Below are positions 4,732-62,336 of a stretch of 64,000 bases of DNA, piece after piece. Source of the DNA: Deltaproteobacteria bacterium. Its GTDB lineage: Bacteria > UBA10199 > JACPAL01 > JAHFST01. The stretch lies in the NCBI GenBank assembly GCA_023265625.1, contig JAHFST010000001.1, forward strand, positions 97,265-161,264. The letters are read 5' to 3'. The notes beneath the pieces are model-generated. The model saw nothing but the letters and a program-made list of their open reading frames with translations. It was not told the DNA's origin and did not search any database. The position numbers and the translations under genes are program-made. Every line of letters starts with the position of its first letter. The stretch's first letter is position 1.

Positions 4732-4739
4732 GGTGAGTT

Positions 4740-5867: not shown

Positions 5868-5884
5868 TCTTTTTTTGGTGCTTT

Positions 5885-8081: not shown

Positions 8082-8083
8082 CC

Positions 8084-20062: not shown

Positions 20063-20092
20063 GGTGCGTTATTTTCCTTACTCTGCTCCGAT

Positions 20093-21601: not shown

Positions 21602-21623
21602 GGGCGGCCCTGTGTGGTTGCCC

Positions 21624-22304: not shown

Positions 22305-22331
22305 AGGATAACCATCACTAAATCTCGTGGC

Positions 22332-23243: not shown

Positions 23244-24534
23244 CGGCGTAAAAGGGGATGGATTCGACCTTGTCGTGGGTGGCAAAATTGGCCGCCGAGA
23301 TCTTATAGGCCTTGTAAATGAATGCCTTTTTTTCCTGCAAAAAGAAGTGCAGACTTTTGAGCCTGCCCTCACGGGCGCTTTTGACCTCGATGGGGACGAC
23401 TCCCGATGGATTCTCCAAGAGAAAGTCGACTTCCGCCATCGCGGATCTTTCCTCGCGGTGCCAATAGAAGAGTTGCGGCGCTTGATTGGGAGGTGTCATA
23501 CTCACCAACTCTTGGGCGACGAACTGTTCCGCGATGCCTCCCCGGTGCGCCAGCATGGTTTTTTTTTCGAGATAGAGTTGGGCCAGGCTGAGACCTAACA
23601 GGCGTTGGCAAAGACCCACATCCAGAAAGAAAATCTTGAATTTTTTCGGATTAATCTGGGCCCCGAGCGGTAGGCCGTTGGCCGAGGAATGGCAAGTTCT
23701 ATAGGCCAGTCCTGATTTTTCCAGCAAATGGAGGACGGAGGCCAGTTCCCGGGATTTTACATCCGGATCCACATGGCTATATTTCCACTTTTGTCCCAGG
23801 AGACGTGGGATCGATTGAAAAGAGATCTGCAGGTATTCGATGTTTGTTTTTGAGGCGTATTTGTAAAAATCCTCCCGAAAACTGGCGACGAGCACCTGCT
23901 GTACCTCCTGGCATCTTTGTAAATTTTGTGTTTCCACGTAGGCCTTGACCGCTTCCGGCATGCCTCCGATCAGGCAATAAAGGGCCACCGCCTCCAGGAG
24001 CTTTTCGTGGATGGGTTCGGGGAGGGGAGTTTTGGCATGGGCGTTGTGAATGGTATCTAACCAATCATCGTGGGAAATGGCGGTAAGATATTCCTCGAAG
24101 TTCAAAGGAAATAAGTGAAAAAACTCGATCCTGCCGACCGGGTAACTGAGATCTTGGAAGGAAAACTCCAGCAGTGATCCTGCTGCGATGACATGAAGTT
24201 CCGGTAAATTTTCCTTAAAATATCGTAGTGACAAAATGGCTTCTTTGGAGTTTTGGATTTCATCGATAAACAAAAGGGTTCCTGGCTTGATTTCTTTTCC
24301 GCTCAGGAACGACAGGGCGGCGATCAGTTCTTGGGGTTTGCCAAAAAGTTCCTTAAAAATTTTGCGATAATCGGGTTCGGCCTCCAGGTTTATTTCTACG
24401 AAGTTCGGGTAGGATAAGCCATGTTCCCTCACCAACCAGGTCTTTCCGACCTGACGAGCCCCTCGGATCAGCAACGGCAGGCGCTGGGATTTCTTTTTCC
24501 AGAGGTCGAGATGGGTAGAGGCAAAGCGGTACAT
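23227..24534 (-). CDS. AAA+ ATPase with a DUF4143 C-terminal domain
   Basis: LIRGARQVGKTWL Walker A. Lies 65 nt downstream of the giant gene on the same strand. Confidence 0.75.
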   Translation of the reverse strand: MYRFASTHLDLWKKKSQRLPLLIRGARQVGKTWLVREHGLSYPNFVEINLEAEPDYRKIFKELFGKPQELIAALSFLSGKEIKPGTLLFIDEIQNSKEAILSLRYFKENLPELHVIAAGSLLEFSFQDLSYPVGRIEFFHLFPLNFEEYLTAISHDDWLDTIHNAHAKTPLPEPIHEKLLEAVALYCLIGGMPEAVKAYVETQNLQRCQEVQQVLVASFREDFYKYASKTNIEYLQISFQSIPRLLGQKWKYSHVDPDVKSRELASVLHLLEKSGLAYRTCHSSANGLPLGAQINPKKFKIFFLDVGLCQRLLGLSLAQLYLEKKTMLAHRGGIAEQFVAQELVSMTPPNQAPQLFYWHREERSAMAEVDFLLENPSGVVPIEVKSAREGRLKSLHFFLQEKKAFIYKAYKISAANFATHDKVESIPFYAVKSIQ

Positions 24535-24578
24535 CCTTGATATATATCCACATTACGGACAAAGTACAAGGGTATTTT

Positions 24579-24593
24579 ATCCATAATATGGAT
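24579..24593. promoter_or_regulatory. Perfect 15-nt palindrome ATCCATA-A-TATGGAT, 7 nt downstream of the giant gene stop. A third ATATCCA half-site lies at 24544..24550.
   Basis: Read directly from the sequence. Confidence 0.35.
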
Positions 24594-24599
24594 ATAATT

Positions 24600-45500: not shown

Positions 45501-48500
45501 GCAATCCGCTAACTTTTGTGCCACATCGATGATTTTCTTATCGTAGAAGAGCCGTAGGTCGACGCCCTGGGTTGGTCCCGCAAACCCGGTGGTGGCGATG
45601 CGCACGGGGAGGGTGAAGGTTCCTACCTTGGCATTGAGATCAAAGGCATGGCCCAATGGATTTCCGAGGTCGATGTCGCCCGTGGTCGGGATGAGATTGA
45701 CCGGGAGCTTTTGGTTGACACTGACCTGGAAGGCTTCTCCCTGATCGACCTTATCTTTGAGATTCATCAAGATACGGCCCACGCCGTTGTCGTGGGCCTG
45801 GATGCGGCCGGAATTGAGGTCGAGTGCGGTGACAAAATCTTTGCGCTTCAGGTTGACAAAATTGGTGGCGGACCCGGAGACATCCTCCGTGGTAAAGGAC
45901 ACCATGTCGTCATAATCGTGTTGGCCATTCTGGGTGATGAGGGTGTGGACGTTGTCGTCTGAAAAGGTGGCGTAGGTGATCATCCTGACTTCGTTATTTG
46001 GGTCCTTGACGCCGCGGTAGGTCGGGTTGGTGGGGTCGCCGTTGCAGGTGCCGCCCAAGGTGATGGTGTTGTTGGCCTCGCAGGTTCGTTTCCAATCGAT
46101 GCGCAGCTCCTTAATGTTGACCGGTTCTTTGGAGACGGTGATGGGTAGCCCGAGGCTCTTCATCTTGCCCAAGATCGCGATGAGTCCGATTTTTCCGTCG
46201 TCGATTTTGGCCTTGATGCGATTGGTGGGGGTAAAACCATCGATGCCACCTACCTCGATGATCCCTTGCAAGTCCGACTGATCGGCGATGGTGTCGTCCC
46301 CGCGCAGAATGACCTGGGGATCATTTTCGTCGTTGCGGCTGGCGGCGATCTTGTCTGAGACATCGAGTGTGGAATTATCCGAGAAAGTGACGATGACCTT
46401 GGCATCGGCCTGTTGATAGTAAGGACCGTTCTCGATCTTGGAGAGGAAATTTTCTGGTGTCGGATTCAAGCTCGGAGGGGTGTAGGTTTCGTAGCTTTTA
46501 AGCGAGAGCGATTGATAGCTCACCACATTCACCGTGAAGGGGAAGGTGAGCGCGGGCCAGAGCGAGATGTTGAGGGACATGGTTTCACTTCCGGTCCCGG
46601 ATGGCCAGTTGTTGATCGTTTTAATGGAGGCGAAGTGAAATTCCGTCCCTGCTTCATTTTGGGTGAAGCCGACCAGGAAGTCGGCGGGGAGCATCTTGGG
46701 ATCGTGGTTCCAGCCTGAGTTGTAGGTAAGATCTTGGCAGCCGTCCCCTGTGACCTTTCCGTCCGGGGTGATCGCGCAGACTCCTCCCTTCATGTTTCCC
46801 ACCACCCGATAATCGGGATTTTGCGGGATCTGTTTCAGGGCGGAGGTAATCTCGTCGCCATTCAGGGCGATGGTGTAGGCACCGGTCGTTTTGGCATACT
46901 GGCCAGCCGTTCCTTTCACCCAGATTTCCACCTTCTTCGGTTGGGCGAATTGGACCTTCACAGTGGCCGCCTGTTCAGGGAGATCCTTCCACTTGGCCTT
47001 GAGATCGGTTGTTCCACTGCCGACGGCGGTGACCTTGGTGCCGTCCACCGAGACCACATTCGGGTTGCCCGAGGCTAGCGCACTCTCGCCGGTTACATCC
47101 ACCCGGTTACCGTTGGGAAGGATTCCATACACCGTGGCCTGGACCGTCTGTCCTATTTCGGTGAAGAGGGAAGAGACACCCGCCTTGACTTCCATGTTGT
47201 TGGCCGCCGGATCAAGCGTGTCCGGGGGAGGGGTGATGGGACTGACCCCGACATGGGCTGGGACGACCACCTGGAGCGAAGCGGGGACGGTGGATGCATT
47301 GGGATCGTAGCCCAATGTGAGTTTGGCGGTTTGCGGGAGTTTTGGATCGGCGGTCAGGAAGGTGAATTCACAATCGTTTTGTTTCGCCCCGCCGGAGAGG
47401 CTCACATAGCCCGCCTTGAGCGTGATATCGCCTTTGTCGCAATTGGTGACTTGGAAATCGGAACTGTCGAGCTTCCCGGTGATGTTCCGGTTTACGCTTT
47501 GGAGATCCCCCGTATATTCTCCCACGACACGGAATTGGAGGAGTTCGTCTTTGCCCAAGGTGATGGGTTTCTTCAGGTCAACGGGGAGCGCCTCTACCCA
47601 GATTTCGTGGAGTTGGAGGTTGCGCACCGGCAAGGTGTTGCTGAGGACCTGCTCTCCCTGCTTAACGGTCAGGTCGGTTTTGCCTTCCTGCGCGCCGTTG
47701 GTGAAACGATTTTTGGGGGATTCTTGCGCGACAATTATCTGGGGATTGCCGGAGATCAGTTTGAGGTCTTGATCGAATGGATCTTCCCCGAACGCCATGG
47801 AGTCGCCGAGTGGTTGGTTCGGGTCGTTGGTGATATGTCTGACTGAGACCTCGCCTACCTCTTTACCGGATTCTCCCTCTAGGGGGCTGCTATCAAAGAG
47901 CTGATTGCTGTTCGTTGTCAGGAGGAGGCCGCGGAGTGTCTTGGCGATGACATTGACTTGGCCGGAATTGTCGATCCCTCCGTTGCCGTCCCAGACCTTG
48001 AGCGGCGATCCTTTGGGGACGGTGAGAGGTCCTGCCACCAGATCGGCTGTCAAGGCTCCGGAGAAGTTGAGCGCTCCCGGGGCGGTTTGTGCGTTGACCA
48101 TGAAGGTGGCCTCGCCCAGGGTGATGGTCCCCTTTTTCGACGGCACATCATCCGTGGCGCTGAAGGTGATGTCGGTGGCATTGGCAGACGCCGATTTTAG
48201 GGTGAAGGGGTCGGGAATTTGCGGAGCGCCGATGACGCTCACCAAGGCGGGGTCAAAGTTGATCTTGGCCCCGTATCCTTTCAGGGGACTGGCCACGTTG
48301 GTTCGGATGGCGGCTTGAAATGTTTCTCCGGGGATCATCGCCTTGTTCGGCAGTTCCAGCCAAATGTCACCCGCTTGTTCAATGAAGGCGGGGGAACCGA
48401 TGCCGGTGACGGTGATCTTTTGCGAGGTCTTCGCCTGAGGCGTTTCCGGCAAGGCGGTGGCGGAGAGGAGAAACTTGGTGCCGTCGGGGAAATCAATGTA

Positions 48501-51500
48501 CGCTATTTTTTTCAGGGCGATTCCGTTCGTGTCGGTGGTGACGGTCCCTTCATCCAATTCTTGTCCCCCCGCAACATTGGTAAAGGCGCAGGGGACACCC
48601 GCCACCGGATTGCCCAGGGCATCGGTGACATAGGCGTACAGGGAAACGGACGATTTCGTGTCGACCGCCTTGTTTTGCACGTAGAGTTTGTCGGTGCTGG
48701 CGATCAGGGTGATTTGATCGACCGCCCCCGCCTTGGTGGCGAAGGGAAGAGTCCCGCTCCCTCCCTGAGAAACATCGGCGGTCACCGATCCTGACCCGAC
48801 CGTGGTGAGATTCAGGAGGTGGCTTTGGTAATAGCCTGGTTGGGCCGGGTTGGCGGTGGTTAGTTCTTCGACCAAGTCGTTGGGTAGTCCAAGGGTGGCA
48901 TTGAAGCCGAGGTTGGCCCCGGAGACCGCGAGGTTCCCCAGATCGGTGGCGGCATCACAGGCATCTCCTACCCCGTCGTTGTCACTGTCGACTTGGTCAT
49001 TGGCCACGTTGGGGCAGTTGTCCTTATCGTTCGGGACACCGTCCGCGTCGATGTCATCATTGCTCTTGTCGCAGGTATCTCCGATCCCGTCCCCATCGGC
49101 GTCGTCTTGCACAACTTTGGGAGGGACGATTGGGTTCGAGGTGGCGGGGCAATTATCTATATTGTTGTTGATCCCATCCCCGTCCTGATCCTCATCGCAG
49201 AGGTCTCCGATCCCATCTTTGTCGGCGTCGGATTGATCGTTGTTGGCGACCGATGGACAGTTGTCGGCGGCGTCGGAGATTGCGTCATTGTCACCATCCC
49301 CCACGCACTGCGCGGGGTTGAGCTGGGTATCGCACAACGGGGCATTTGCGGGACAATTGACTCCCGGAGTGTCGCAGGGAGGCAGGCAGATTCCCCCCTG
49401 GCAACTGGTCCCGGTGACGCATTCCTCGTTGGCCACGCAAGAGCCACCCGAGTCCGTTTTGCAGACATTCTGCTCACATTTTTTCCCCTGGCCACAATCG
49501 TTATCCACTTGGCAGCTTCCCGGTTTGATGGCGCAGGCGTTGTTTTGGCACGATTGACCAGCGCCACAATCCCCATCCACACTGCAAAACTTGGCAACAC
49601 AGCTTCCCTTGCCGTCGGCCCCTATTTTGATCTTGTCGCAAGATTCATTGGAGGCACACTGTACCCCGGCGCAAGGATCCGGTGGTATCTTGCAGACGTA
49701 GCCCGCGGCAATATCGCATTTCTCACCCACCAGTAGGTTGCAATCAGCATCCAGCTCACAGGCCACCGGCTGGCAGGTCTTGCCGCCGCCAACCTTATCG
49801 AGACAGGCCTCTTTGTTGACGGGGCAGTCCACATCCCCTTGGCAGGATTTGGCACCATTGATCCCCTTGACGGCTAAGGCCTTGGTGACTGTCACCAGGT
49901 TACCGACCGTCTTACCGGCCACGATGGAGAGATGCTCATAGGTGATTTTCACTGTAACGGCGGTGTCGTTTTGAATGTCCGCTAGCGGGGCTTGGTAGAC
50001 GGCGAAAATTTTTCCCGCCACATTTTCGTCCTTGGTCTGTGTGGCGGTGAACTGGGTGGTGCCGTCGCTGAATGTGAAGAGAGGCTTGCCTTGAGCATCC
50101 GTCTCCGTCAGTTCAAAATGGACGTTGGTATCTTGTTTAATCGGCTGGCCCTTGGCATCGGTAAGGTCGGTGAAGACGCGGTATTTTCCAACACCGTCTT
50201 CCTGGGCGTAGATGTCGACGAAGGAGAAGGCCCCTGAAACTACTTGGAGGGCGCTGCCGGTGTCCGGTGGCAACACCTTGCCATCTTGGTCGAAGTCGGC
50301 CTGGTCGCATTTTTCAGCAGGGTTGATCTTGGGACAGACGAATTGGCCGCCTTTATCTTGGATAAATTTCTGGATCTCGACGACGTCGGTGATGGTGAAG
50401 CCCCCCTGGCTGTTGAAGTCAAGGACCGGGGCGGGATCGATCCATCCGGCCCCCGCCTCCATGACCCCCGGCTTGTCCCCCGCTACGGAGAGGGTGAAGG
50501 TGCCGCTCAGTTTCGTGTAGGGGGCGGCGGCCTTTTTGAGGATGTTGAAGCTCAATTCACCCAGCTTGACCTGCCCCTTGTTGCCTGCCGGCACGAGTCC
50601 GGAGAAGTGGACGTTGGCCCGCAGGTTGGGTTCGGGATTTTGCGGATCGAAGTTTGGTGTGACTGATGGCGGGGCGCTCCCGGCGGGGAGATTCTTCATC
50701 GTGATGGAGGCGAGCTCCATGAATTCGGGGTTGAAGAAGAGGGTGATGTCGTAGCCGTTCAACTCCTTGGCGGGATCGCCGGTGGAGGCAAAAACGGGAA
50801 GATCGATCGAACCGGTCGCAAGGACGTCGACAAACCGACCGGTGAAGGGTCTTTTCGTGGTTGGTCCTATATTGCCAATGTCAACGTCCAGTTTATTCGT
50901 CTTGAGATTCGTGACTAACGCGTAGTCCTGCGTTGGGGCCGCGGCCCCCACATTTTTGTTCAGCGTGACGGTGATCTTGGCGGCCCCGTTTTCGAGGATT
51001 TGCAGCATGGCCTTATCGTTGTCGACCACTTTGATCGGCTCACCGATTAGGGCGGGAGCCACGTCCTTCATGGCCGGGAGGGGGATCACGCTGGACGTCA
51101 GATTCAGGAGTCCGGTCACGGTGATATTGGTCAGGTCGCGATGCGTCCCGTCGGCCAAGGTGGCGATGACACCGAGCGGGGTGACGGACAATTTGGGAGC
51201 GGAAAAGGTGGCGGCAAATGGGCCATCCTGCAAATTAGTCGGGATGGGGAATTGGTCAATCGACCCGAGGGGAAAACTGATAACGGCCAAGTTGGTGATG
51301 TCCACCGATCCCTCCTCCACGAGGATGGATGTCTCCCCTTGGATTGGGTTGAGGGACAGCGTCTTACCCGCAATGGAGAGCATGATTTTACCCGCAGGAT
51401 CGCCCGAGCTGTTGCTTGGGATGATAAATAAGGTGAAGGGCCAACTGGTGCCGGGATAAGCTGGGACTATTCCAAATGGGTCCAGATAGTTGGGAAAGCT

Positions 51501-54500
51501 CAGGCTGAGTCCCGCTTGTTTCAGTTGGACGAATTGATTTGCGGTCAAGATCAAGGGGGCATTAGGGACACCGGGAAGGTCATCGCTCCAGACCGGTCGG
51601 AGGGTGAGTCTGCCCCTTTGGAACCGGTCCGCCTGGTTGGCTCCCTCGATCACCCGAAACAGGAAGGCGCCGTCTTTCTTGGGCTGGGCGACTGCATTTT
51701 TGAAACTTGCGGGGCCTCCGAGGTCAAAGTCCTCCCAGACCTCCATCTTGAGATCCTTGAGGGTCACGACCTGAAATTCACAGGTCTGCGGGGTGACGCC
51801 GAAGAGTCCGCCGACGTCGAGCTCCAGTTTGACCGGTCCGACCCCGGTCCCTTTGCTGGTGACCGTGACCTTTCCAGCCAGATCCGGTGCTCCCACGGTG
51901 ATAAGGTCTCCTCCAGAGATTGGAGTGACCTTCACAAGGGGGAGGATGGTCTTTGCGTTGGTCTGAACGACGAGGGTAGCCGTGGTCGGAAGTCCGCGCA
52001 GGAGTGCGGATGCATCCCCCGCCGTAACCGCCATCCCTCCCGTCGGGCACCCCTGATTCGGATTGAGATCCGGTTTGGGGATGTCAATCACTACCTGGTT
52101 CTGGTGGGGAATCTTGAGCGTCTCCCCGAGATTTTTCAAGTTGGCCCGGACGAAATAAGGTTTGTCCCCGTTGGAGGCGAGCGCCTTGATCCGCGTGTGG
52201 GTGTTGTCGGTGAATGTGGCAAAGGGCTGTGGATTGCCCACCTCGTCAACCAGCGAGATCTCATCCGGTGAGAGCAGGGGAGTGATATCGCTCCAAATTT
52301 CCTTCCCTCCCTCGTCAAACAAGGCCCAGAAGCTGAGCGGGACCTCTTGGAACGGTTGTGAAAGGTAATTAGTGACCGTCGCTAACCCCTCTCCCTTGCC
52401 AAAATTGGGATCGGTCCCATCAAGGATGGAGAGCGGAAGAGGTGGCTTAAGGTCGACATGCCCCGGGATGGTGACATAGATGGTGGCGGGCTGTTTTTCC
52501 ACCTGCGTGATGGCAATGGTGGTTTTGGTTGCGTTGACGGGGTTTCCGTTCAGTGTAACCACCACGTTTTCGCTAGATTCTGCCCCAGGCGCCCCCTTCA
52601 CGCCGATCAGCGAACCATACAGGGGATTTGCGGCATTGACCTGAGAGAGAGAGAGAGAGTTCGAGACCTGGAGTCCGATCTTGGCAAGTCCGGTAAGGTT
52701 GATTGGCTCCACCGCGCCGCCGAAATCGGTGTAGACAAAGGCGCGGGCGGTCTGCCAGAGGGACGGGTTGACCCCGCTGAATCGGTCCAGGGTGGTGTCA
52801 CTCACAAAGAGTTTGATCTGATCGGAGGCCAGTTTCCAAGCCGTCACGCCAATCCCGTCAAAATTCTGTGCGTTGTTGTAGACCGCTTTCAGGGTATCGT
52901 TGCCGCTCTTGGCGACGCTGTAATTTCCCTGATCGGTTTGGATGACTTGTCCTAATGGGATGAGCGAGATGGTCTTTGCCGAATCAGGATCGAAGATCCC
53001 CTTGCTGGTGACCACCCGGAGTTCCACGGAGGAGGCCTTGGGGGGTGCGCCGGCCAGGGAGAGATCGATCAGGTAGCTGTCCTTGGCCCAGGCGAAGATT
53101 CCGCGGTCGACCACTGGCTTGACGGTCACCTGGCCGGAGGCGTCGGTGACCCCCGTCTGATCGGCCACGGAGAGGGTAGCCGAACCGTACTCGGGGAAGT
53201 TTCCTCCCGTTTTGTGGTAGAGGGTGGCACCCCCTGTGGCGGTTGGTGTGACGATGGCCATCACCTTCGGATCGACTTGGACGGTCAGGAGGGCAACCTC
53301 GAGTTTTGCGCCCGGCCCGATCGTGTCTGGGCAGCTACTTGTGAAGGCGACGGAACCGGTATTCAAACCGTTGGGTGTATAAGCCTGGAAACAGCTGGCA
53401 TCCTTCCCCTTGTTGATCTGCGTGACGGTCAAGGGGGGAGTAAAATCAATCTTGAAAAAGAAGCTGTGGAGGTTCTTATCTCCCGTATTGACATAAAGCG
53501 GGACGGTGAAGGTCTCACCGGGAAGCAGCGGGCGTTGCGGGAGCTGGATCCCGGCGGTCTCTGCGGGGAGCTGGAGTAGTTCCTTGGCAGGGATGAAGGT
53601 GATCGGGACCTGCTGGGCCGGGTCGAGTTTGATGGCCCCCTGGTTGGCCTGGACACTCAAGGTCCCGTTTTTGGAAAATAACATCTCCTGTTGGTAGAGA
53701 CCGGCGGTCGTCTTGGTGGCGTTACCGGCCGGTTGGCCATCCACCAGAAACTGAACGGAGTCGGGATCGACCGGCCGTCCGCTGCTGTCGGTCACAAAGG
53801 CGAAGGCCTTGATCTTTTCTCCACCTGGTGCCGATGATTCCGGCGTGTAGACCTCGCCCCGATTGGTCAGGAGGTGGAGCTTGGCCGGTGTCCCCTTGAC
53901 CAGCCAGGGTTGTGGCACGGCGGTCCCGCCGGCTGGGATGGTGGCCTGCAAAAAGGCGGAACCGGTCCGAGCGACATCCAAGATTTTTTCTTGATAGCTT
54001 CCGGCCTTTTCCTGAAGCCAGAAGGCCTGATGGGGACGTCCCAGATCGGGATCCTTGCCGGCGATGTCTTTGATCGCGAAGTCGAGCGTGGCCCCCTTGA
54101 CCGGTGACCCCTTCACGGTGGATCCTTTGGCGACAACATTGATGGTGAAGGTGACGGTGATCTTGTCTTTCGGTTTCCCGGTTGGATCCAAATCATTGAT
54201 GGTGAGGGTGAAGGTTTTTTCTCCCAGGTCCTCCTGTGTGACGGGCCCCCAGGCGAAGACCCCAGCCGGGGTGATTTGAGCCTTGATCCCTGGTGGCGGG
54301 GTCACCTCGAAGAGGAGCCCATCCTGGTCAGGATTCAATGTCTGGGCGCCAAAATCGATCGAGACGGTGGCGTCAACTTCAAAAGGTCCGAATTTTTTGG
54401 GGCCCTGATACACGGGGAGTTGATTGGAGTTCGGGAGTTGGCAGCTGCCGTTTATCTCTCCCACGGGGATGTTGCAGACCTCTTCCCCTTTGCAGTCCTC

Positions 54501-57500
54501 TTTCTTTTGACAACTTCCACCCCCTTGGCAGCTTCCACTCACGCAGACTTGCCCTGGACATTCACTCGAATCCTTACAACCGGTCCCGCCAGCGCATTGA
54601 CCTGCCACGCAGGTCTGGGTCCCGGCACAATCGGCAGGCTTTTGACAGGTTCCCCCGCCTTGGCAGGTCTTATCGACGCAAATCTGGCCGAAGTTGCACC
54701 CATCCGCGCAATCGTTGCCTCCAGTGCAGCTTCCCTGGAAGCAGGTTTGGGGTGCGACGCAGTCGAGCTTCGAATCAGCGCAGGTGCCGCCGGAGCAGTT
54801 ACCATCAGGACAGGATTCGCAGGTGCCGGTGGCGTTGCAGAGCTTGCCGGCGCCGCATTGACCGTTGACGGTGCAGGAGAGGGCGCATTGCCCGGTGTTG
54901 AGATCGCAGCTCTCTCCGAGTCCCTTGCAAACAACCGAGGTACATTTATTTTTACAAATTCCATCCAGGGGATCGCAGGTGTCCCCCGCGGCGCAGCCCT
55001 TGCCGGCACAGAGGTTGGGTAGGTCCGCACACTGCCCGGTGGCGGGGTTGCAGACGAGATTGGCGGGGCATGGTGGCTTGTCAGTGCAATTGTTTTTGCA
55101 GACCCCCAAGTTATTTTCCACGAGACAGATCTCTCCCAACGGACAGATCTTTGCCTTACAGGGGCCGTCCTGTCCCGTGGCACCGTTTAGCACCTTCTTG
55201 TCAAAGTCTGTGGGGGGGAGGTAGACGACGTTCTTGTCCTCTCCCGTCTTGGTGAGTGACGAGACCTTGGCCTCGAAGGTGCAAGTGTCGTTGGATTGCA
55301 GATTGAGCTTGAACTCCAGGCTACAGTCGACCGGATTGAAGACGCCACCGCTGCTGTCGGTATATTCCTTACTGGCGTCAGGGTTGCCAGGGCAGACGGC
55401 GCTCAATTTTGCGGCCACGTTTTTGGCACATTCGAGCTTGTCTGGTCCGCTTTGATCATTCTTTGGTTGGCCCAATTTCAGGAAGACGCTGTATTGACCG
55501 CCTCCGTTGTCCTTGATGCTCAGGTCGGAGAGGAAGAAGACCTGGTTCACAATCTGAAGACAACGGGTGACATCCCCCAACTCGAGGAAGCCGTCCGGAT
55601 AGTAGTCGGCCTTGGAGGCGGGGACCTCCCCAGCTGTAATTTTGTAGGGAGGGGAATAGGTCGAGAGGAGCCCTTGTTGGAGTTTGAGACAATCGAAGCC
55701 GGTCAGTTTGTTATCCGCGTCAAAGTCCCAGGCCGTGATATCCAGCACATCCGGATCGACCAAGCCGGCACCCGCGACAATTGGACGTGGGAGGTTACCG
55801 CCGATCGGTTGATTGCCCGGGTCGACCAGGTTGAAGACCGTACCGGTCATTGCGGCGATCTTGGCCGCGCCCTTGGTGGCCTGGAAGGTAAGGGTGCCGA
55901 GCGTGACCATTCCGTCTTTATCCCCGGTGGCGGGGGTGCCGAACAGGCCGTCGAGCAGGACGGAATTGCCTTCAATATTTGGCGAGACCTTGAGTGAGGG
56001 GTCACCGGCCGGGACAAACTTGACCACCTTCAAGACCGACGCCGGGTTCCAGGCGAACTCGATCTTAAAAACCGACAATTTTTTATCTCCCACCTTGACG
56101 CGGACCGGTGCGTCAAAGGTTTCTTGATCCGTTAAGACCGGAAAGAAGCGTCCGCCGATCTTGCCGAGGTCGACATCTCCGACCTCTGGGAGGAGATTCA
56201 AGGCCAGCGGGTAGTCCTGGTTGGCATTGGCGCTCTTGGCGGTGATAACGGTCCCGCCGTTGCCGGTGATTGTTACCGTCCCTAGTGCGAGGTCTTGCCA
56301 TTTCGAAAAGCTGTTGTCCTCTTCGGGCGTGTTGGCATCATTGGGAAGGTTAAGATTCTTTTTGGAGAATTGGATGATTCCCGGGATGACCGGTCCGGTG
56401 GTATCGACCAGGCGCGTCCGTGTCCCGTCCTCAAAGGTCCCGACGACCCGGATCTGGCTCTTGCCACCTACCGGTCCCGAGAGGGTGTCTTTAAAAGTTA
56501 TTTCATCCGACGCGCCGATCCCCTCGGTGCCGCGTAAATGCAAGGTCGCCAAGGCCTCGGCCTCCCCGACGATCTGGATGGAATGCTCGCTCTTGAGAGA
56601 GCTTTCCCCCTTGGCCCCCACGCCCGGATAAGTTGCCTGGATGGTAAAGGTCGCGACCTGTTGCGGCAGGATCCGCCAGACATTGTTTTCTTTCACGACC
56701 TTGAAGGGGTTCGCGATCGTCTGGTCTTTCATGCCCTCGTTCAAGGTCAGTTTGCTTTCCGGATGATTCAAGAGGTCGATTTTTGGGTAACCCGGATCGC
56801 TCCACAGGCCACGGACGGTGAGCCGTCCCTTTTGCCACTCCGCGCTCGCTTCCACCTTGGAGAAGAGGGCGTCTTCAATATTTTTGCCATCGATCGCGGG
56901 GGTGAATTGACCCGCGTCGCCTAATTCCTGCGCGCTGAAATCCTCCGAGGTCTTGATCTCGAGCCCGGTGAGGCCCAACACCTGAAGATTGGTGGAGGCT
57001 ACGAAGGAACCACCGGGGAGGCCGCTGATCGAACAGCTGAGGGTGACGACGCCGGTGGCGGTGTCGGTCGATTCGATGTTTCCTTTTTGTGGCAACGTCA
57101 CCAGGTTGCTCGAAGGGGCACAGGTGGTCTGCGCCTCTTGCGTCGCATCCCAGGTCCCGCCTCCCTTGAAGTGGACGATCACCTGGTAGGTGGTTCCGGT
57201 TGGAATTTTTTCCATGGTGGCGGCCGGGTCGGTTGCGTTGATGGCGATGTGTGTTGCCCCCAGTTTGACCTCAACATTGTCCGCATCGGGGACCTTGACC
57301 TGGACGCCCCCTTTGCCGATTTTACCGGTTGCAGTATGAGTGGCTGCGATCACGGTGGCCCCCGGTCCCTTCGGTTTGATGACTGTAATCATTTTTTGCT
57401 GCTCATCGGTGAGGGGGACCACGACGGAGTTATTGTCGCTGGCCAGGGTGATCTCGGAGCCGACCAGGGAGGTGAGGTTGAATTTTTTCACACCGTCCGC

Positions 57501-60500
57501 CTCGGCGGCATATCCCCAGACCTCGACCGGCGCGGTGTCGGCCATCGAATCGATCTGATTGGTGACGTAGGCGAAGGCCTCGGTGGTCCCTGCATCGAGG
57601 TTGGTCACGGGCGAGGGGTTGATGGCATTCCCTTGGCCCGATTTGCCCAAGAAGATGGTGGCCGGGACCAGGACCTTGAGATCGGTCAGCGCGACTTCTT
57701 CATCGGTGCGCGCGACGGTCTTTTGCTGCGCCTCGGGAAGCCCCGGGACGGAAAGGGTTGTTGGCCCGTTCTTTGTGCCCGGGATAATCTTGCCTTTTTC
57801 CACGGTTGCCACCGCCGGGTCGCTACTGCTCCAAGCGGCGTACGGGGCGAGGTCAATCTTGAGCCCTGGGGTGTTGGGGTCGCTCCAGAGGAGTCGGGCC
57901 CGGGTCTGTTGATATTGATTGGAACCTTGAATCTTGTTGAGGGTGAGATCTTCCAGCTCTAAGGATAGATCCTTCGGGTCGGCCACGGAGGAGGTAATTC
58001 GCACCCCTCCTTGCGAGAGTCCGCTGAATGTCGCCTTGAAGAAGTCTTGCCCGCCCTTGGCTGGGGCGTAGCCAGCCCCCTGCAAGGTCACGATCCCGCT
58101 GTTGGCCCCTGCATAAGCAAACGAGGTCTTTGCGGTGACATCGTCGGGATCGGAGATCCGATTGTAAAGGGCCCGTGCCTGGAAGGCCCCTTTGACATTG
58201 AGCGAAGCGGCCAATCCCCCCTGGTAAACATGTTCACGGTCGGCCCAGGCCAGCAGGGTCTTGAGCTGTTGTTCAATAACTTTAATACTCCCTTGGGGAG
58301 TCTCACCCGCGACGTTGCCCGTGAGGTCGGCGATGCGGAGCGGTACTCCTTGAACACCCAGGCTGGTTCCTTTTGCGGCGAGTTTTTGGAGCTGGATCTT
58401 CTTGCCAGAAAAGGCCTGTTGCGTGCCCCCCTTGGCCTCCGGTGTGACTTGAAACAGGATGGTTGCCAGTTGGAAAAATCCCTTGGGGCTTGCGGCGTTC
58501 GGGGCTGGGTTGGTCGCACTGAAACTTAGTTTGCCTGGTTGGAGCAGATGATTGTTGTCGTCCGGGGTCCAGGCGAGTGGCCAATTGACCAACGTGATTT
58601 TGGGGAGACCTTTTTGCGTGACGGGGGCGACTAGGTCCTTGCCGAAGTTAATTTCTACCTGAAAGCCGTTGACCACTTGGTCTAGGCCGCCCTCTTTGGC
58701 GTTAACCCAGAGTTGGACCGGAAAGGTCTCGCCGGGGAAATGAGGTTCTTGGGGAATGACCAGTCCCATCTCTCCTTCGGCCAAAACAATCGGTTCCGCC
58801 CGTTTCGCCAACACCAGGTCGGTGGAGACCGGCAGCATGTTGGGGGCTGAGACGGTTAGTGTGCCGGGACGATCAGTGTCATTCTTGAAGGCGTTTTGCG
58901 GGACGGAGAGGGCTTTGTAAAAAATCCCCTTGTCTTTGTAATCGGCCGAGAGGTTGATCAGACCGGCCATGGGCACTCCGGAGACCGAGAGCGTGAATTT
59001 CACTGCGCCGCTGCTGCGCTCATCCAGCGGTCGTCCGGCGGCATCCCGCAGGAAGGCGTAGGCCACCACGGTTGGCTGCGAGGCGTAGTATCGAGGGAGG
59101 CCGCCTGAGTCGTCCCCTTGTAGCACCAAATTGACCTGGGTGGGGAGCGTGTCCACAGAGACATTTTTGGCAGCGGCGGTTTTTTTGCCGGCGGGGATCT
59201 GGGCGTTGATCGCATCAAGCGCGACATCGTTCAGCCCATAGATGGTCCCCTGATAGTTTCCTTGCCCTGCCTCTACGAGCAGGTTGGACCAGAGCCCCAG
59301 GCTCGGGAGAAACTCGATCGGGACCCCCTCCACCCCTTCGCCAAAACTCTCCGGTGCAAATTTTACGACGATCAAGATTTCCTTGATGCCGCTTCCCCCC
59401 TTGCCGTCGCTCAGGGTCAGTTGGGCGGAGTAAGGATCGGCCGATACCTCTTTGGCCTTGGGTTTCCAATTAATTTTCCATTGAGTGCCTTGGTCGGTCT
59501 TGGTGGGCGACGAGAGCTCGGCACTCGTTCCTTCCAGGCCGCTAAGCAGCAGTTCCAGGGTGTCGTTGTCTGCATCGGTTGCGGTGAGCGTCAATTCATT
59601 GTCTTGATCGGCGAAGAATTCAACCCCGCTGGGCGCGGTCAAAATCGGGGCGTGATTGGTAGGGGCGACGGGTGTGACGCAGACCCCGGCGGTCAGGTCG
59701 CAGACCTGGTCAGGCCCACATTTTGTCAGATCGGTCGCCGAACATTCTCCCTTGGTCTCATCAGCATCTTTTACCCCGTCTCCGTCATCATCATCGTCTG
59801 TGATGTCCGGGATCCCATTGTTGTCATCGTCGGTGTCAATGTTGTCGGGGATCCCGTCTCCATCGGTGTCTTGGTTCCCATCGTCGATCGGCCCCTTGCT
59901 GACACAGACATGGTTTTCACTGCACGCGAATCCCTCGTTGCACATACTGTCTTCCGTGCAGTCCTTGCCGCCGATGGCGCATTTCAAGTCGGGTTGGCAG
60001 CTTTGCTTTTCAGGGCAATCATTGTGTTCCGCGCAAACCTTGCCTCCGGGGAGGCAGGTGCCGTTGGTGCAGGTGGTGCCGCCTGTGCATGTGTCGAATT
60101 GACTGCAGGGCGTGCCTCCCTGAATGCAATTCTCCCCGGAACAAAAGGAGCCCGAGGCACATTGGCTGTTTTTGCTGCAGGTCCCGCTGGAAGAGACGCA
60201 ACTGCCGTTGGAGCAGGCCTCGCCGATCGGGCACTCTCCGGTGCTTTTGCAGAGCGAAGCGGCCACCTGGCAGATTTTACTGGAACAAAAATGTCCCTGC
60301 GGGCAATCGCTGCTGATGATGCAGCCCTTTTTACCTTCGATGAAGTCAGGGGGCAGCGGCGGGGCGCAGGCCTCATTGATACATTGGGAACTGTCTGCAC
60401 AGTCCTGAGCGGTATGACAGGTCGCCTGACCCGACTGGCAGACCTTGCCCGAGCAGTAGGCCCCGGTGGGGCATTGGCTGTGAGTTGCACAGGGAATCAC

Positions 60501-60866
60501 GGGTAACCAACAAAAACCAGCCAAACATTGTTCCGAGGCACGACAATCGCTGACTTGCTTACAGGTGCGAGATCCCTCACCTGGATCACACGCAGAGCCA
60601 ATTCCATTGTTATTTAAATCGCTTTGTTCCGAATTTGGGAGGAGGGGGCAATTGTCCGTGGGATCGACGATACCATCGCCATCGGTGTCATTTTTGAATT
60701 CATTAGTCCCGATGATCTCGGACCCGGGGTTTTGCGCGTTGTCTGAACCACCGTCTTTCGAACAACTACAACCGCCCCCTTGGGCGGACATCTGTCCGGA
60801 GAGGAAGAGAAAACCGTTCCCCAGTAAGAACAGCAATAAAATTTGTCGTGCTATCCGTGCTCGCAA
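24600..60866 (-). CDS. Giant secreted modular protein, 12,088 aa. Signal peptide, cysteine-rich repeats, thrombospondin type-3 Ca-binding repeats, many cohesin-like and Ig-like beta-sandwich modules, dockerin-like modules, a C-terminal right-handed beta-helix, a Q-rich coiled segment and a Pro/Thr-rich tail.
   Basis: Single uninterrupted 36,267-nt frame. TTG start with RBS. Domain motifs read from the translation. Confidence 0.9.
24603..24900 (-). repeat. Low-complexity Pro/Thr/Ala-rich C-terminal tail of the giant protein. No LPXTG, PEP-CTERM or RTX motif.
   Basis: [15 protein letters not shown]...[19 protein letters not shown] at the end of the ORF. Confidence 0.7.
25815..27700 (-). other. 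Right-handed parallel beta-helix (PbH1-type) domain of the giant protein, ending with a DLGAYE motif
   Basis: [25 protein letters not shown] and NRVISNN rungs. Terminal [10 protein letters not shown]. Confidence 0.6.
27950..29110 (-). repeat. Cys-rich knot 7 with thrombospondin type-3 repeats
   Basis: C-codon-dense stretch. [17 protein letters not shown] and [15 protein letters not shown]. Confidence 0.6.
33770..34280 (-). repeat. Cys-rich knot 6 (no TSP3 repeats)
   Basis: [16 protein letters not shown]...[14 protein letters not shown]. Confidence 0.6.
34625..34860 (-). other. Two-segment dockerin-like Ca-binding module: (GF)[13 protein letters not shown] and [24 protein letters not shown]
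   Basis: Reverse-complement codons read directly. DxDxDGxVDxxD loop followed by a helix, twice. Confidence 0.55.
38430..39200 (-). repeat. Cys-rich knot 5 with a thrombospondin type-3 repeat cluster (at least 6 repeats)
   Basis: [37 protein letters not shown] and similar repeats. Confidence 0.7.
39510..39700 (-). other. Two-segment dockerin-like module: [22 protein letters not shown] and [18 protein letters not shown]
   Basis: Reverse-complement codons read directly. Confidence 0.55.
43780..44510 (-). repeat. Cys-rich knot 4 (no TSP3 repeats)
   Basis: [40 protein letters not shown]... Confidence 0.6.
48960..49870 (-). repeat. Cys-rich knot 3 with a thrombospondin type-3 cluster
   Basis: [40 protein letters not shown]... 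Confidence 0.7.
54430..55170 (-). repeat. Cys-rich knot 2 (no TSP3 repeats)
   Basis: [27 protein letters not shown]... through ...GSCQLP. Confidence 0.6.
58670..58762 (-). other. Example A-type cohesin-like module core ([31 protein letters not shown]). At least 5 further copies follow later Cys-rich knots.
   Basis: Pattern LPxRPLxPGETFxVxLxVNT...F.F.I.FD recurs through the protein. Confidence 0.5.
59680..60700 (-). repeat. Cys-rich knot 1 with flanking thrombospondin type-3 repeats, at the N-terminus of the giant protein
   Basis: [25 protein letters not shown]. About 10 CxxxxDCxxGxxC units. [22 protein letters not shown]. Confidence 0.7.
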
Positions 60867-60897
60867 AAGACACCCTTGCCCTTTTGCGGCTTAATAG

Positions 60898-60915
60898 AAG
60901 CAAGAAATGTGCCAA
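60898..60915 (-). promoter_or_regulatory. Sigma-54 (RpoN) -24/-12 promoter TTGGCAC-ATTTC-TTGCTT for the giant gene
   Basis: Exact TGGCAC-N5-TTGC spacing on the minus strand, ~45 nt upstream of the TTG start at 60866. RBS AAGGGCAAGGG. Confidence 0.6.
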
Positions 60916-60994
60916 TGGAATATTATTTAAATTCTTGAAAAATAATGACTTTTTGGAAGATGGGGAGGGCGAAAGTGTTGTTTTTTTGACATGT

Positions 60995-61708
60995 TTATCG
61001 TTTTGATAATAATTTTTTGATATGGCGGAGGATGAAGCGGGCGATGAGGCGCTTGGAGGTTAGCGGGCTACGGGTGATATTTTTGTCCCGATCCAGCAAA
61101 AAAACTTGGTTCTGATCGCTTGCAAAGCCTTGGTGGTTTTTGCCAACCTGGTTGGCGACAACCAGATCGCAATTTTTTTTCAGCAGTTTGTCACGCGCAT
61201 TTTTAATGAGATTTTGTGTCTCCGCCGCGAACCCGACCAGTAGGGGCGCTGCTTCAGCCGGAGGCTGATCCGCCTCTGGCGGATGCTGCGCCCTTGCCCG
61301 TTTCATTTTTCCCAACGCCGCCAAAATATCCGGGGTGCGGACCAATCGGATCGTCATCGGTCCGGGACGTTTTTTCACCTTGTGTGGGGATGTTTTTTCG
61401 GGGCGGTAGTCCGAAACCGCGGCGGCCATGATGAGGATGTCGGTCTGTTTGGCGTGCTGCATGACGGCGCGGTACATTTGTTGGGCGGAGGTGACGGGGA
61501 TGACGCGCATGGGTGGGGGCGTATGGCAATACGCCCCTACAGGCCCCGAGATTAACATCACCTTGGCCCCTTGTTTTTGGGCCTCCTCCGCCAAGGCGTA
61601 CCCCATCTTGCCTGACGAGGGGTTGGAGAGAAACCGGACCGGATCGAGGTATTCCCGGGTGGGACCCGCGGTGATCAAGATGCGTCGGCCTTTGAGAGGT
61701 TGTTTCAC
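60995..61708 (-). CDS. coaB: Phosphopantothenate-cysteine ligase (CoaB), encoded separately from CoaC
   Basis: RILITAGPTREYLDPVRFLSNPSSGKMG motif. Confidence 0.8.
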   Translation of the reverse strand: MKQPLKGRRILITAGPTREYLDPVRFLSNPSSGKMGYALAEEAQKQGAKVMLISGPVGAYCHTPPPMRVIPVTSAQQMYRAVMQHAKQTDILIMAAAVSDYRPEKTSPHKVKKRPGPMTIRLVRTPDILAALGKMKRARAQHPPEADQPPAEAAPLLVGFAAETQNLIKNARDKLLKKNCDLVVANQVGKNHQGFASDQNQVFLLDRDKNITRSPLTSKRLIARFILRHIKKLLSKR

Positions 61709-62268
61709 GCGGGTTTAATTTTTTTGACCTTTAGGATCTTTTCCATTTCTTGTAACAGCACGGCCGTCTCCGGCAGGCGACCCTTGCCGGTATAGCCGCA
61801 GGCCAGCGATCCGGAGTCAGGCTCCAAGACTCGAAATCCATGTTTTTGCAGCTGCGCGACATTTTCCTGGGTGATGGAATTTTTCCACATGTGCACATTC
61901 ATCGAGGGGGCTACCAAAATCGGGGCGCGGGTGACGCAGACCAAAGTGGTTAACAGGTCATCGCAGATTCCATGGGCCATCTTGGCCAGGATGTCAGCCG
62001 TGGCGGGGGCGATCATGACCAGATCCGCCTTATCAGCTAGCGCAATATGTCCCATCTCCTGCTCTTCGGTCAGGCTGAAGAGTTCGGTATGGACCGGGTT
62101 GCCACTCAAGGCCTGGAAGGTGAGGGGGGTGACAAACTGTTGGGCTCCCTTGGTCATGACCACATGGACCGAGGCCCCTTGTTCCGCGATGCGCCGCACC
62201 AGATCACAGCTCTTGTAGACCGCAATTCCGCCGCTCACGCCCAATGCGATGTTTTTCCCTTTGAACAT
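61705..62268 (-). CDS. coaC: Phosphopantothenoylcysteine decarboxylase flavoprotein (CoaC)
   Basis: KNIALGVSGGIAVYK flavoprotein N-terminus. ATGA overlap with coaB. Confidence 0.8.
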   Translation of the reverse strand: MFKGKNIALGVSGGIAVYKSCDLVRRIAEQGASVHVVMTKGAQQFVTPLTFQALSGNPVHTELFSLTEEQEMGHIALADKADLVMIAPATADILAKMAHGICDDLLTTLVCVTRAPILVAPSMNVHMWKNSITQENVAQLQKHGFRVLEPDSGSLACGYTGKGRLPETAVLLQEMEKILKVKKIKPA

Positions 62269-62336
62269 AAGTCATCCTAGCCAATAAAATTGGGGATGAC
62301 AAGGTGTCAGATGAGCGGTTTGATTAGGATGGAGCG

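What the first reader, a model, noticed from the sequence alone, without database searches (positions are those of the whole stretch)
60866..60915. Giant gene driven by a canonical sigma-54 promoter with a TTG start
The minus strand reads TTGGCAC-ATTTC-TTGCTT, a TGGCAC-N5-TTGC match. It lies ~45 nt upstream of the first in-frame start, a TTG at 60866, which is preceded by AAGGGCAAGGG. There is an in-frame stop at 60891..60893, so no ATG start is possible. Sigma-54 promoters strictly require an enhancer-binding activator, so expression of the mega-protein would be signal-gated. This fits a costly, conditionally deployed structure. No enhancer-binding protein is encoded in this window.
Basis: seen in the sequence. 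Interest (0 to 1): 0.6.

Follow-up and report, generated by a model that had tools for sequence, protein, structure and literature searches.

The report
Conserved sigma-54 promoter before giant gene
A 36-kb gene for a 12,088-residue secreted protein in an uncultivated bacterium is preceded by a textbook sigma-54 promoter and a rare TTG start codon, both kept in a distant relative, so this very costly protein is probably made only when a dedicated activator switches it on.

Summary
On the minus strand, TTGGCAC-ATTTC-TTGCTT (60915..60898) is the only exact TGGCAC-N5-TTGC in the window. It lies in the 128-nt coaB/giant-gene spacer and points at the gene. The in-frame TAA (60893..60891), the AAGGGCAAGGG box and the TTG at 60866 are all as described.

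The decisive evidence is comparative. A divergent lineage (L011/L092; CoaB 62% identical, giant-protein N-terminus 39%) keeps the coaC-coaB-giant gene order. At the same position it has TTGGCAC-GAAAG-TTGCTT. The two boxes are 13/13 identical, the spacer is 0/5, and the rest of the spacer region is about 42% identical. It also has a TTG start and a G-rich ribosome-binding site.

A scoring matrix built from 29 ChIP-supported Salmonella sites gives 16.3 bits for the window site, the top score in the window. It gives 22.0 bits for the orthologs. Nothing in 491 kb of unrelated loci reaches 16.3.

The TTG at 60866 is better supported than the public gene call at 60836.

Three things are untested: rpoN in the genome, the activator (none within about 84 kb), and the real transcription start. 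The organism's taxon was not determined.

Verdict: a well-supported new example of a known promoter class; moderately interesting.

The parts
60898..60915 (-). Sigma-54-type promoter: TTGGCAC (-24 box, 60915..60909), spacer ATTTC, TTGCTT (-12 box, 60903..60898)
   Evidence: Sequence. Unique exact match in the window. PSSM score 16.3 bits, the top of 127,966 positions. Boxes 13/13 identical to L011/L092, spacer 0/5.
60886..60890 (-). Predicted transcription start (+1 at about 60888, 12 nt downstream of the -12 C at 60900), giving a 5' UTR of about 22 nt
   Evidence: Inferred from the fixed -24/-12 geometry of sigma-54 promoters (PMC3844500). Computed. Not measured.
60891..60893 (-). In-frame TAA that closes the reading frame upstream of the start
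60873..60883 (-). G-rich Shine-Dalgarno region AAGGGCAAGGG, 6 nt before the start codon
   Evidence: Conserved as AAAGGGGCAGGG / AAAGGGGCAAGGG in L011 / L092. Other genes in the window use similar G-rich boxes.
60864..60866 (-). TTG start codon of the giant gene
   Evidence: First start codon after the in-frame stop. TTG at the equivalent position in L011 and L092, and the protein alignment begins at residue 1 of both.
60777..60866 (-). Signal-peptide-like N-terminus [30 protein letters not shown], followed by the conserved GGCSC
   Evidence: Translation. Aligned with MKKRIFAQLAFLGLLSYGFVIFSGQAFG-GGCSC in L011. The n/h/c regions were judged by eye, not by a predictor.
60834..60836 (-). Second in-frame TTG (codon 11), used by a public gene call (12,078 aa); judged the less likely start
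   Evidence: coordinates mapped. No SD upstream. It would remove the positively charged n-region.
24600..60866 (-). Giant ORF of 12,088 aa. Cys-rich DUF7107 modules and thrombospondin type-3 repeats; otherwise unannotated
   Evidence: Pfam. 309 Cys and an Ala/Pro/Thr-rich C-terminus. No DNA tandem repeats.
60995..61009 (-). Candidate upstream activator site: palindrome TTATC-AAAAC-GATAA straddling the coaB stop, centred at -114
   Evidence: Centre at -114/-115/-115 in the window, L011 and L092, although the coaB stop codon is shifted by one codon. Present only in giant-gene loci among the 100 loci fetched. It overlaps coaB codons, so function is not shown.
60983..60990 (-). Conserved block GTCAAAAA, centred at about -99
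60928..60939 (-). Conserved A/T-rich block TTCAA-N4-TTR, centred at about -46. It is one mismatch from the IHF consensus WATCAANNNNTTR (consensus recalled from memory)
   Evidence: This is a weak lead, because the region is AT-rich.
60995..61708 (-). coaB (phosphopantothenate-cysteine ligase domain), the upstream neighbour
   Evidence: Pfam DFP, 4.6e-72.
61705..62268 (-). coaC (flavoprotein decarboxylase domain), a separate ORF overlapping coaB by 4 nt
   Evidence: Pfam Flavoprotein, 1.4e-35.

Best explanation
The 128-nt spacer between coaB and the giant gene carries a functional sigma-54 (RpoN) -24/-12 promoter at 60915..60898. This promoter is dedicated to the giant gene.

The proposed mechanism is as follows. 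RNA polymerase with sigma-54 would sit there in a closed complex. It would fire, at about 60888, only when an AAA+ enhancer-binding activator encoded elsewhere in the genome hydrolyses ATP. The activator might bind the conserved TTATC-N5-GATAA palindrome at -114. The conserved A/T block at about -46 might help the DNA loop.

The resulting mRNA has a 5' UTR of about 22 nt with a G-rich Shine-Dalgarno box. Translation starts at the TTG at 60866. The product is a 12,088-aa pre-protein with a Sec-type signal peptide. Its Cys-rich, calcium-binding-repeat architecture suggests an extracellular or surface protein.

Shown: the motif, its statistical rarity, its conservation pattern, and the conserved TTG, SD and signal peptide. 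Inferred: sigma-54 dependence, the transcription start, the activator site, and signal-gated expression.
For: - The exact motif is unique in the window. It is very unlikely in a 128-nt spacer: about 4e-5 to 1e-4 by shuffling.
- A PSSM was built from 29 ChIP-supported Salmonella intergenic sites (sequences from PMC3844500). The window site scores 16.3 bits and ranks first of 127,966 positions. It falls within the leave-one-out range of real sites (14.2-22.8).
- The ortholog site scores 22.0 bits and beats 27 of 29 real sites. No position in 491 kb of unrelated loci reaches 16.3.
- Orthologous loci L011 and L092 (CoaB 62% and 58% identical; giant-protein N-terminus 39% identical from residue 1) keep TTGGCAC and TTGCTT at 13/13. 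The spacer is 0/5 identical and the rest of the spacer region is 42% identical.
- The distance from the -12 C to the start codon is 33/36/36 nt. The distance from the coaB stop is 80/84/81 nt.
- No sense-strand sigma-70-type promoter was found in any of the three spacers.
- The upstream blocks keep their positions to within 1 nt.
- TTG is the first possible start in the window and L011 (in L092 an earlier in-frame TTG lies within the promoter region). It is conserved, has an SD like other genes in the window, and is the only TTG among 17 public gene calls on this contig.
- Relatives that lack the giant gene lack both the motif and the palindrome.
- A bacterium with a related stand-alone CoaB encodes an NtrC-type sigma-54 activator next to coaB. 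So sigma-54 machinery exists among the bacteria whose CoaB is most similar.
Against: - rpoN could not be looked for in this genome. The taxon was not determined.
- No enhancer-binding protein lies within about 84 kb.
- Only two independent lineages could be compared, because L011 and L092 are close to each other.
- There is no intrinsic terminator after coaB, so read-through transcription from coaCB cannot be excluded.
- Sigma-54 binding sites do not always act as promoters. The title and abstract of PMC4591121 report widespread non-canonical binding.
- The candidate activator site overlaps the last coaB codons, so its conservation could be due to coding constraint.
- There are no transcript data.
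Confidence: 0.7

Rival explanations
1. The giant gene is transcribed mainly by read-through from the coaC-coaB operon, from a sigma-70-type promoter upstream of coaC. On this view the sigma-54-like element is a non-productive binding site or plays only a minor role.
For: No intrinsic terminator was found between coaB and the giant gene in any of the three loci. A weak sigma-70-like site, TTGTCA-17-TAGGAT, lies just upstream of coaC at 62302..62274. All three genes are on the same strand.
Against: An AT-rich spacer of 128-135 nt is kept in both lineages. Within it, the conserved islands are exactly the -24 and -12 boxes, while the bases between them are free to change. The giant gene is a lineage-specific insert next to coaB, so operon membership with a housekeeping gene would be accidental. 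Constitutive co-expression of a 36-kb gene with CoA biosynthesis seems costly (inference). Read-through and a dedicated promoter are not mutually exclusive.
Confidence: 0.15
2. The conserved TTGGCA is the -35 element of an ordinary sigma-70 promoter, not a sigma-54 -24 box.
For: In L011 and L092, TTGGCA is followed after 17 nt by TATATA (L011 3659-3664 and 3682-3687; read). That is a passable -35/-10 pair.
Against: In the window the same TTGGCA is followed after only 13 nt by TATTAA, so the spacing is not conserved. The GG-N10-GC spacing is exact in all three sequences. The sigma-70 scan reports no sense-strand promoter in any of the three spacers. A sigma-70 reading does not explain conservation of the full TTGCTT box at exactly the sigma-54 distance.
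Confidence: 0.07
3. The motif is a chance match, or it is conserved for an unrelated reason such as a site for another DNA-binding protein, an RNA element in a longer transcript, or a small ORF.
For: Only two lineages are available. AT-rich spacers hold many short conserved words.
Against: Chance is about 1e-5 to 1e-4 per spacer, and the match recurs independently at the same position. No Rfam match. No covariation, and folding energies are no better than shuffled sequences. The only small sense ORF (21 aa, 60992..60927) is not conserved in L011. The conserved bases are exactly those contacted by sigma-54, and the non-contacted spacer is the part that varies.
Confidence: 0.05

Closest known systems
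Classical sigma-54 (RpoN) -24/-12 promoters, e.g. Salmonella gltI TGGCACGTCTATTGCTTT and yeaG TGGCATGAGAGTTGCTTT (PMC3844500)
   Same: GG and GC exactly 10 nt apart, with the flanking T-GGCAC and TTGC-TT. The PSSM score falls within the range of bound sites. The site is intergenic, in the sense orientation, and 33-36 nt ahead of the start codon. A candidate dyad-symmetric site lies in the usual 70-150 bp upstream range.
   Different: The organism is an unidentified uncultivated bacterium. rpoN and the activator have not been seen. The target is a single 36-kb gene for a secreted protein, rather than nitrogen, flagellar or stress genes.
Sigma-54/activator control of surface and secretion structures, e.g. 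type IV pili, T3SS, T6SS and biofilm (listed in PMC12316311), and FleQ-type control of the large adhesin LapA in Pseudomonas (my own knowledge; the search returned a FleQ-regulon paper, PMC6120874, which I did not read)
   Same: An enhancer-dependent switch placed in front of a cell-surface or adhesion function.
   Different: No activator, signal or phenotype is known here. No paper in the searched library links sigma-54 with a giant protein.
Giant genes of Omnitrophota, in particular the thrombospondin/dockerin-type class (bioRxiv 10.1101/2023.11.21.568195)
   Same: A very long single ORF with an N-terminal signal peptide and thrombospondin type-3 repeats. A T2SS/type IV pilus-like locus is nearby (window 21..14452). 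That paper cites proteomics showing that another giant protein rises about 3-fold on prey attachment, so conditional expression has a precedent.
   Different: This protein is 12,088 aa, against 30,000 aa or more for the named class. No dockerin hit was found in Pfam. The secretion locus is about 10 kb past the 3' end on the other strand, not upstream. The phylum of this window was not determined. Neither giant-gene paper mentions promoters or sigma factors.
Sigma-54 control of very large biosynthetic genes (PMC7910581; title and abstract only)
   Same: Sigma-54 promoters placed ahead of unusually long, costly transcription units.
   Different: Those are PKS/NRPS enzyme genes in cultured bacteria, supported by experiment. 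This is a structural or secreted protein known only from metagenomes.

Membership tests
Sigma-54-dependent promoter | Conserved GG (-24) and GC (-12) dinucleotides separated by exactly 10 nt, within TGGCAC-N5-TTGC | tested here: met
   Exact match in the window, in L011 and in L092.
Sigma-54-dependent promoter | Overall similarity to experimentally bound sites (PSSM score) | tested here: met
   16.3 bits for the window site and 22.0 bits for L011/L092. Real Salmonella sites score 14.2-22.8 by leave-one-out. The window site is the top score in the window, and no position in 491 kb of control DNA reaches it.
Sigma-54-dependent promoter | Placed upstream of, and oriented toward, a gene, at a workable distance | tested here: met
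   In the coaB/giant-gene spacer, on the sense strand, 33-36 nt from the -12 C to the start codon, leaving room for a 22-25 nt UTR with an SD.
Sigma-54-dependent promoter | Purifying selection on the boxes but not on the spacer between them | tested here: met
   Boxes 13/13, spacer 0/5, rest of the intergenic region 49/117. Only two independent lineages were available.
Sigma-54-dependent promoter | rpoN present in the genome | not testable with these tools
   Only 64 kb plus gene lists for 10 kb on each side are accessible. Circumstantial: a bacterium with a related CoaB encodes an NtrC-type activator.
Sigma-54-dependent promoter | A cognate enhancer-binding activator and an upstream activator sequence | tested here: inconclusive
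   No Sigma54_activat protein or GAFTGA motif in the window or its 10-kb flanks. There is a candidate site, TTATC-N5-GATAA, at -114/-115. It is conserved and specific to giant-gene loci, but it overlaps coaB codons.
Sigma-54-dependent promoter | Transcription start about 12 nt downstream of the GC, dependent on rpoN and on an activator | not testable with these tools
   No transcript data.
Omnitrophota thrombospondin/dockerin-type giant proteins | Many thrombospondin type-3 repeats | tested here: met
   Pfam TSP_3, E = 2e-22 and 1.5e-21 in the first two thirds of the protein.
Omnitrophota thrombospondin/dockerin-type giant proteins | Dockerin/EF-hand repeats and discoidin domains | tested here: not met
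   Pfam reports no families other than TSP_3 (E <= 1e-5) and DUF7107 (8.9e-08).
Omnitrophota thrombospondin/dockerin-type giant proteins | Encoded by a member of phylum Omnitrophota | not testable with these tools
Sec-dependent secreted protein | N-terminal positively charged n-region, hydrophobic h-region, and small residues at -3/-1 | tested here: met
   MRARIARQ / [16 protein letters not shown] / QMSAQG|GGCSC, aligned with the same layout in L011. Judged by eye; no predictor was run.

The most novel reading that the evidence does not exclude
The giant gene arrived as a self-contained cassette in a variable slot next to coaB. It carries its own enhancer-dependent switch: a sigma-54 promoter, a position-fixed activator palindrome that overlaps the coaB stop codon, an A/T-rich bending block, and a deliberately weak TTG start. 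If so, this would be the first regulatory handle on a bacterial giant gene. The protein would be produced only on a specific signal, such as contact with a surface or a prey cell, sensed by an activator encoded elsewhere.
Probability: 0.3. Interest if true: 0.5.

Novelty: new member of a known kind. Interest (0 to 1): 0.38.

Why it matters
Giant bacterial genes are a recent and poorly understood discovery. The two giant-gene papers I checked do not discuss how they are transcribed. No paper in the searched library connects sigma-54 with a giant protein.

A sigma-54 promoter is silent without its activator. That would explain how a cell can afford a 36-kb gene: it keeps the gene tightly off until it is needed.

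The prediction is specific and cheap to test. One can look for 5' ends near 60888, search the MAG for rpoN and activators, and run a reporter assay with a promiscuous activator.

The work also corrects the public start-codon call, from 60836 to 60866. That restores a complete signal peptide.

The promoter class itself is textbook, so the advance is a good regulatory lead rather than a new mechanism.

Tried and rejected
- **Large protein search with the N-terminal 500 aa.** It was swamped by thrombospondin type-3 repeat proteins covering about 7% of the query. The three hits with wider coverage (P0040, P0064, P0114) have unrelated N-termini.
- **Metagenome scan with the window+L011 N-terminal alignment.** The tool chose thrombospondin-repeat patterns, and no new ortholog appeared. 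The 80 loci did serve as negative controls.
- **Protein search with a repeat-free chimeric N-terminus.** No hits.
- **Taxon assignment via cluster members.** Names were absent or cut off before the organism. P0121, the NCBI copy, could not be retrieved.
- **Other stand-alone CoaB relatives, L094-L099.** None has the giant gene. Ten further relatives lack the characteristic CoaB tail, so I stopped.
- **The 1,451-aa protein that occupies the same slot in L097.** It is not homologous to the giant protein.
- **RNA-level explanations.** No Rfam hit. No covariation. Folds were no better than shuffles. An SD-sequestering hairpin in the window's UTR (z = -1.9) is not conserved in L011.
- **Longer inverted repeats upstream.** None is conserved. 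The 15-nt repeat at 61134..61164 inside coaB is specific to the window.
- **Other sigma-54 sites in the window, e.g. ahead of the pilin genes.** None found.
Full report
**What is in the sequence**

Reading the minus strand, the spacer between the coaB stop (60997..60995) and the giant ORF is 128 nt long and 36% G+C. It contains TTGGCAC-ATTTC-TTGCTT at 60915..60898. This places GG at 60913-12 and GC at 60901-00, exactly 10 nt apart, which is the geometry of a sigma-54 -24/-12 promoter (PMC3844500).

- An in-frame TAA lies at 60893..60891. The eight codons after it include no possible start.
- The TTG at 60866 opens a 12,088-codon ORF that ends at 24600.
- AAGGGCAAGGG lies at 60883..60873, 6 nt before the TTG.
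- The upstream genes are coaB (Pfam DFP, 4.6e-72) and coaC (Flavoprotein, 1.4e-35). They are separate ORFs overlapping by 4 nt.

**Is the motif more than chance?**

- The exact TGGCAC-N5-TTGC occurs once in the window, against 0.08 expected over both strands.
- Matches with one mismatch are at chance level (6 found, 4.3 expected). All of them lie inside the giant gene on the antisense strand.
- Within the 128-nt spacer alone, the exact motif arose in 11 of 300,000 mononucleotide shuffles and 33 of 300,000 first-order Markov sequences.
- I built a position-specific matrix from the 29 ChIP-supported intergenic sigma-54 sites listed for Salmonella in PMC3844500. With it, the window site scores 16.3 bits. 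That is the best of 127,966 positions in the window (the next is 13.7 bits). It lies inside the leave-one-out range of the real sites, 14.2-22.8.

**Comparative evidence**

Exact-protein look-ups showed that the window comes from a metagenome population assembled several times (ENA contig of 342,707 bp, NCBI contig of 396,004 bp, Logan fragments). Those copies are identical across the spacer, so they carry no phylogenetic information.

The CoaB search found two closer relatives, P0122 (62% identity) and P0123 (58%). All other hits were at about 50%.

- P0122 lies on L011. There, coaC-coaB is followed after 135 nt by a large gene that runs off the contig. Its product aligns with the giant protein from residue 1, at 39% identity over 381 residues (E = 4e-60).
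- P0123 lies on L092, from Rifle groundwater. L092 includes the spacer and the first 55 codons of the same gene. It is close to L011 but not identical.

Both loci read TTGGCAC-GAAAG-TTGCTT. Their site scores 22.0 bits and beats 27 of the 29 Salmonella sites.

In an alignment anchored on the boxes:

| Region | Identical positions, window vs L011 |
|---|---|
| -24 and -12 boxes | 13 of 13 |
| 5-nt spacer between the boxes | 0 of 5 |
| Rest of the intergenic region | 49 of 117 (42%) |

The motif begins 80/84/81 nt after the coaB stop. It ends 33/36/36 nt before the start codon. Conserved contact bases with a freely varying spacer, at a fixed position, is the pattern expected for a sigma-54 promoter under purifying selection. 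A chance match or general sequence relatedness would not be expected to produce it.

**The start codon**

- The orthologs also start with TTG, at the aligned position: MRARIARQ... in the window and MKKRIFAQ... in L011.
- In both the window and L011, this TTG is the first start codon after an in-frame stop.
- The first in-frame ATG is codon 26 in the window and codon 684 in L011. An ATG start would therefore remove the signal peptide in one lineage and 683 residues in the other.
- The TTG is preceded by a conserved G-rich box. Other genes in the window use similar boxes 5-8 nt upstream, such as aagggggg, aggggggcg and gaggtg.
- A public gene call for the 342.7-kb contig starts at a second TTG, 60836, giving 12,078 aa. 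That codon has no such box, and starting there would delete the positively charged MRARIARQ segment. The call on fragment L008 uses 60866.
- Among 17 public gene calls on this contig, 14 start with ATG, 2 with GTG, and only the giant gene with TTG. A weak start codon kept in both lineages may help limit output of a very costly protein. This last point is an inference.

**Upstream architecture**

Three further conserved islands keep their distance from the predicted +1 (60888) to within 1 nt in both lineages:

| Element | Window coordinates | Centre relative to +1 |
|---|---|---|
| Palindrome TTATC-N5-GATAA | 61009..60995 | -114 / -115 |
| GTCAAAAA | 60990..60983 | about -99 |
| A/T-rich TTCAA-N4-TTR | 60939..60928 | about -46 |

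- The palindrome straddles the coaB stop codon. It is retained even though the stop is shifted by one codon between lineages.
- Among the 100 loci fetched, the palindrome occurs only in those that carry the giant gene.
- Its position fits the usual 70-150 bp range for activator sites (PMC3844500), and its dyad symmetry suits a dimeric helix-turn-helix protein.
- However, it overlaps coding sequence and is a single site. I therefore treat it as a candidate only.
- The A/T block is one mismatch from the IHF consensus as I recall it, and the region is AT-rich, so this is a weak lead.
- No longer conserved inverted repeats were found.

**Activator and sigma factor**

- No GAFTGA-type motif, activator-type Walker A, or RpoN box occurs in any of the six frames.
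- No Sigma54_activat hit appears among the window's ORFs, nor among the called genes 10 kb beyond either end of the window on the source contig.
- I could not test whether the genome has rpoN.
- One CoaB relative, L096, has a sensor kinase and an NtrC-type activator (Response_reg + Sigma54_activat + HTH_8) directly after coaB. This shows that sigma-54 systems occur among the bacteria whose CoaB is most similar. It says nothing direct about this genome.

**Rivals**

- *Read-through from coaCB.* This cannot be excluded, because no intrinsic terminator follows coaB in any locus. It does not explain the conservation pattern, and it may coexist with a dedicated promoter.
- *A sigma-70 reading.* TTGGCA-N17-TATATA is possible in L011/L092. 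In the window the corresponding spacing is 13 nt. The scanner finds no sense-strand sigma-70 promoter in any of the three spacers.
- *RNA-level or small-ORF explanations.* These found no support.

**Context of the gene**

- More distant relatives with stand-alone coaC and coaB share a block coaC-coaB-PLPC-UDG-GGDEF-SpoIID-queA, as in L095.
- The window has the same block. The giant gene and an AAA_14/DUF4143 ATPase are inserted between coaB and PLPC.
- In L097/L098 the same slot holds an unrelated 1,451-aa secreted protein. It starts 8 nt after coaB and has no sigma-54 motif.
- The slot is therefore variable, and the promoter belongs to the giant-gene insert rather than to the coaB operon.
- In the giant protein, Pfam finds only thrombospondin type-3 repeats and DUF7107 Cys-rich modules.
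- The protein has 309 cysteines and an Ala/Pro/Thr-rich tail. It has no DNA-level tandem repeats.
- A type II secretion / type IV pilus-like cluster occupies 21..14452.

**Comparison with the literature**

Giant genes with thrombospondin repeats that lie near T2SS-like loci are described in Omnitrophota (bioRxiv 10.1101/2023.11.21.568195). That paper also cites a roughly 3-fold rise of another giant protein on prey attachment.

I could not establish the phylum of this window. The protein lacks the dockerin repeats of the named class, so I do not file it there.

Neither giant-gene paper mentions sigma factors or promoters. No paper in the searched library pairs 'sigma-54' with 'giant protein'.

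**Verdict**

This is a new, well-supported example of a known promoter class in front of an unusual target. The start codon is corrected relative to a public call, and there is a candidate activator site. The main gaps are rpoN, the activator, a measured transcription start, and the small number of lineages compared.

- Confidence that this is a functional sigma-54 promoter driving the giant gene: about 0.7.
- Interest: moderate, 0.38.

Noticed in passing
window 18186..62268 compared with L094, L095, L097/L098: The giant gene and an AAA_14/DUF4143 ATPase (23227..24534) sit in a variable slot between coaB and a conserved PLPC-UDG-GGDEF-SpoIID-queA block. The slot is empty in L095. In L097/L098 it holds an unrelated 1,451-aa secreted protein. 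In L094 the AAA_14/DUF4143 gene lies between coaC and coaB instead.
   Followed up: partly
window 60834..60836 and 60864..60866: Public gene calls disagree on the start of the giant gene: 60836 (12,078 aa) on the 342.7-kb ENA contig, and 60866 on fragment L008. The evidence favours 60866.
   Followed up: yes
window 60986..61013 (+ strand): A strong sigma-70-like site, TTGACA-16-AATAAT (11 of 12), points antisense into coaB. It overlaps the conserved GTCAAAAA and palindrome blocks. It is not called in L011 or L092, where the -10 hexamer is degenerate.
   Followed up: partly
L096 6626..9401: In a bacterium with a related stand-alone CoaB (54% identity), coaC-coaB is followed directly by a HisKA sensor kinase and an NtrC-type sigma-54 activator.
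   Followed up: no
window 60995..62268: CoaBC is split into separate coaC and coaB genes that overlap by 4 nt. This stand-alone form also occurs in its closest relatives, whereas most database hits are the fused 400-aa bifunctional form.
   Followed up: partly
window 60765..60779 (giant protein residues 30-34): GGGCSC directly after the hydrophobic segment is conserved in both lineages. It could be an atypical lipobox, with the Cys as a lipid anchor, rather than a plain signal-peptidase I site.
   Followed up: no
window 21..14452 and 10 kb beyond the left edge: A large T2SS / type IV pilus-like cluster: MshE-type and PilT-type ATPases, T2SSF, four N_methyl pilins, PilM/PilN, a secretin, and a TPR-SLT transglycosylase. 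A stand-alone receiver-domain protein sits among them. TolB and ExbBD-TonB genes lie beyond the cluster.
   Followed up: partly
window 16930..18114: IspH/LytB spans 333 residues for 264 profile positions. This implies an insertion of about 70 residues relative to the Pfam model.
   Followed up: no
window 27343..27357: This is the only other exact TTATC-N5-GATAA in the window. It lies inside the 3' part of the giant gene and is probably a chance match (2 matches with up to one mismatch, 0.83 expected).
   Followed up: no
window 60855..60888 (-): The predicted 5' UTR of the window copy can form a hairpin of -10.8 kcal/mol that covers the SD and the TTG (z = -1.9). It is not conserved in L011.
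   Followed up: yes
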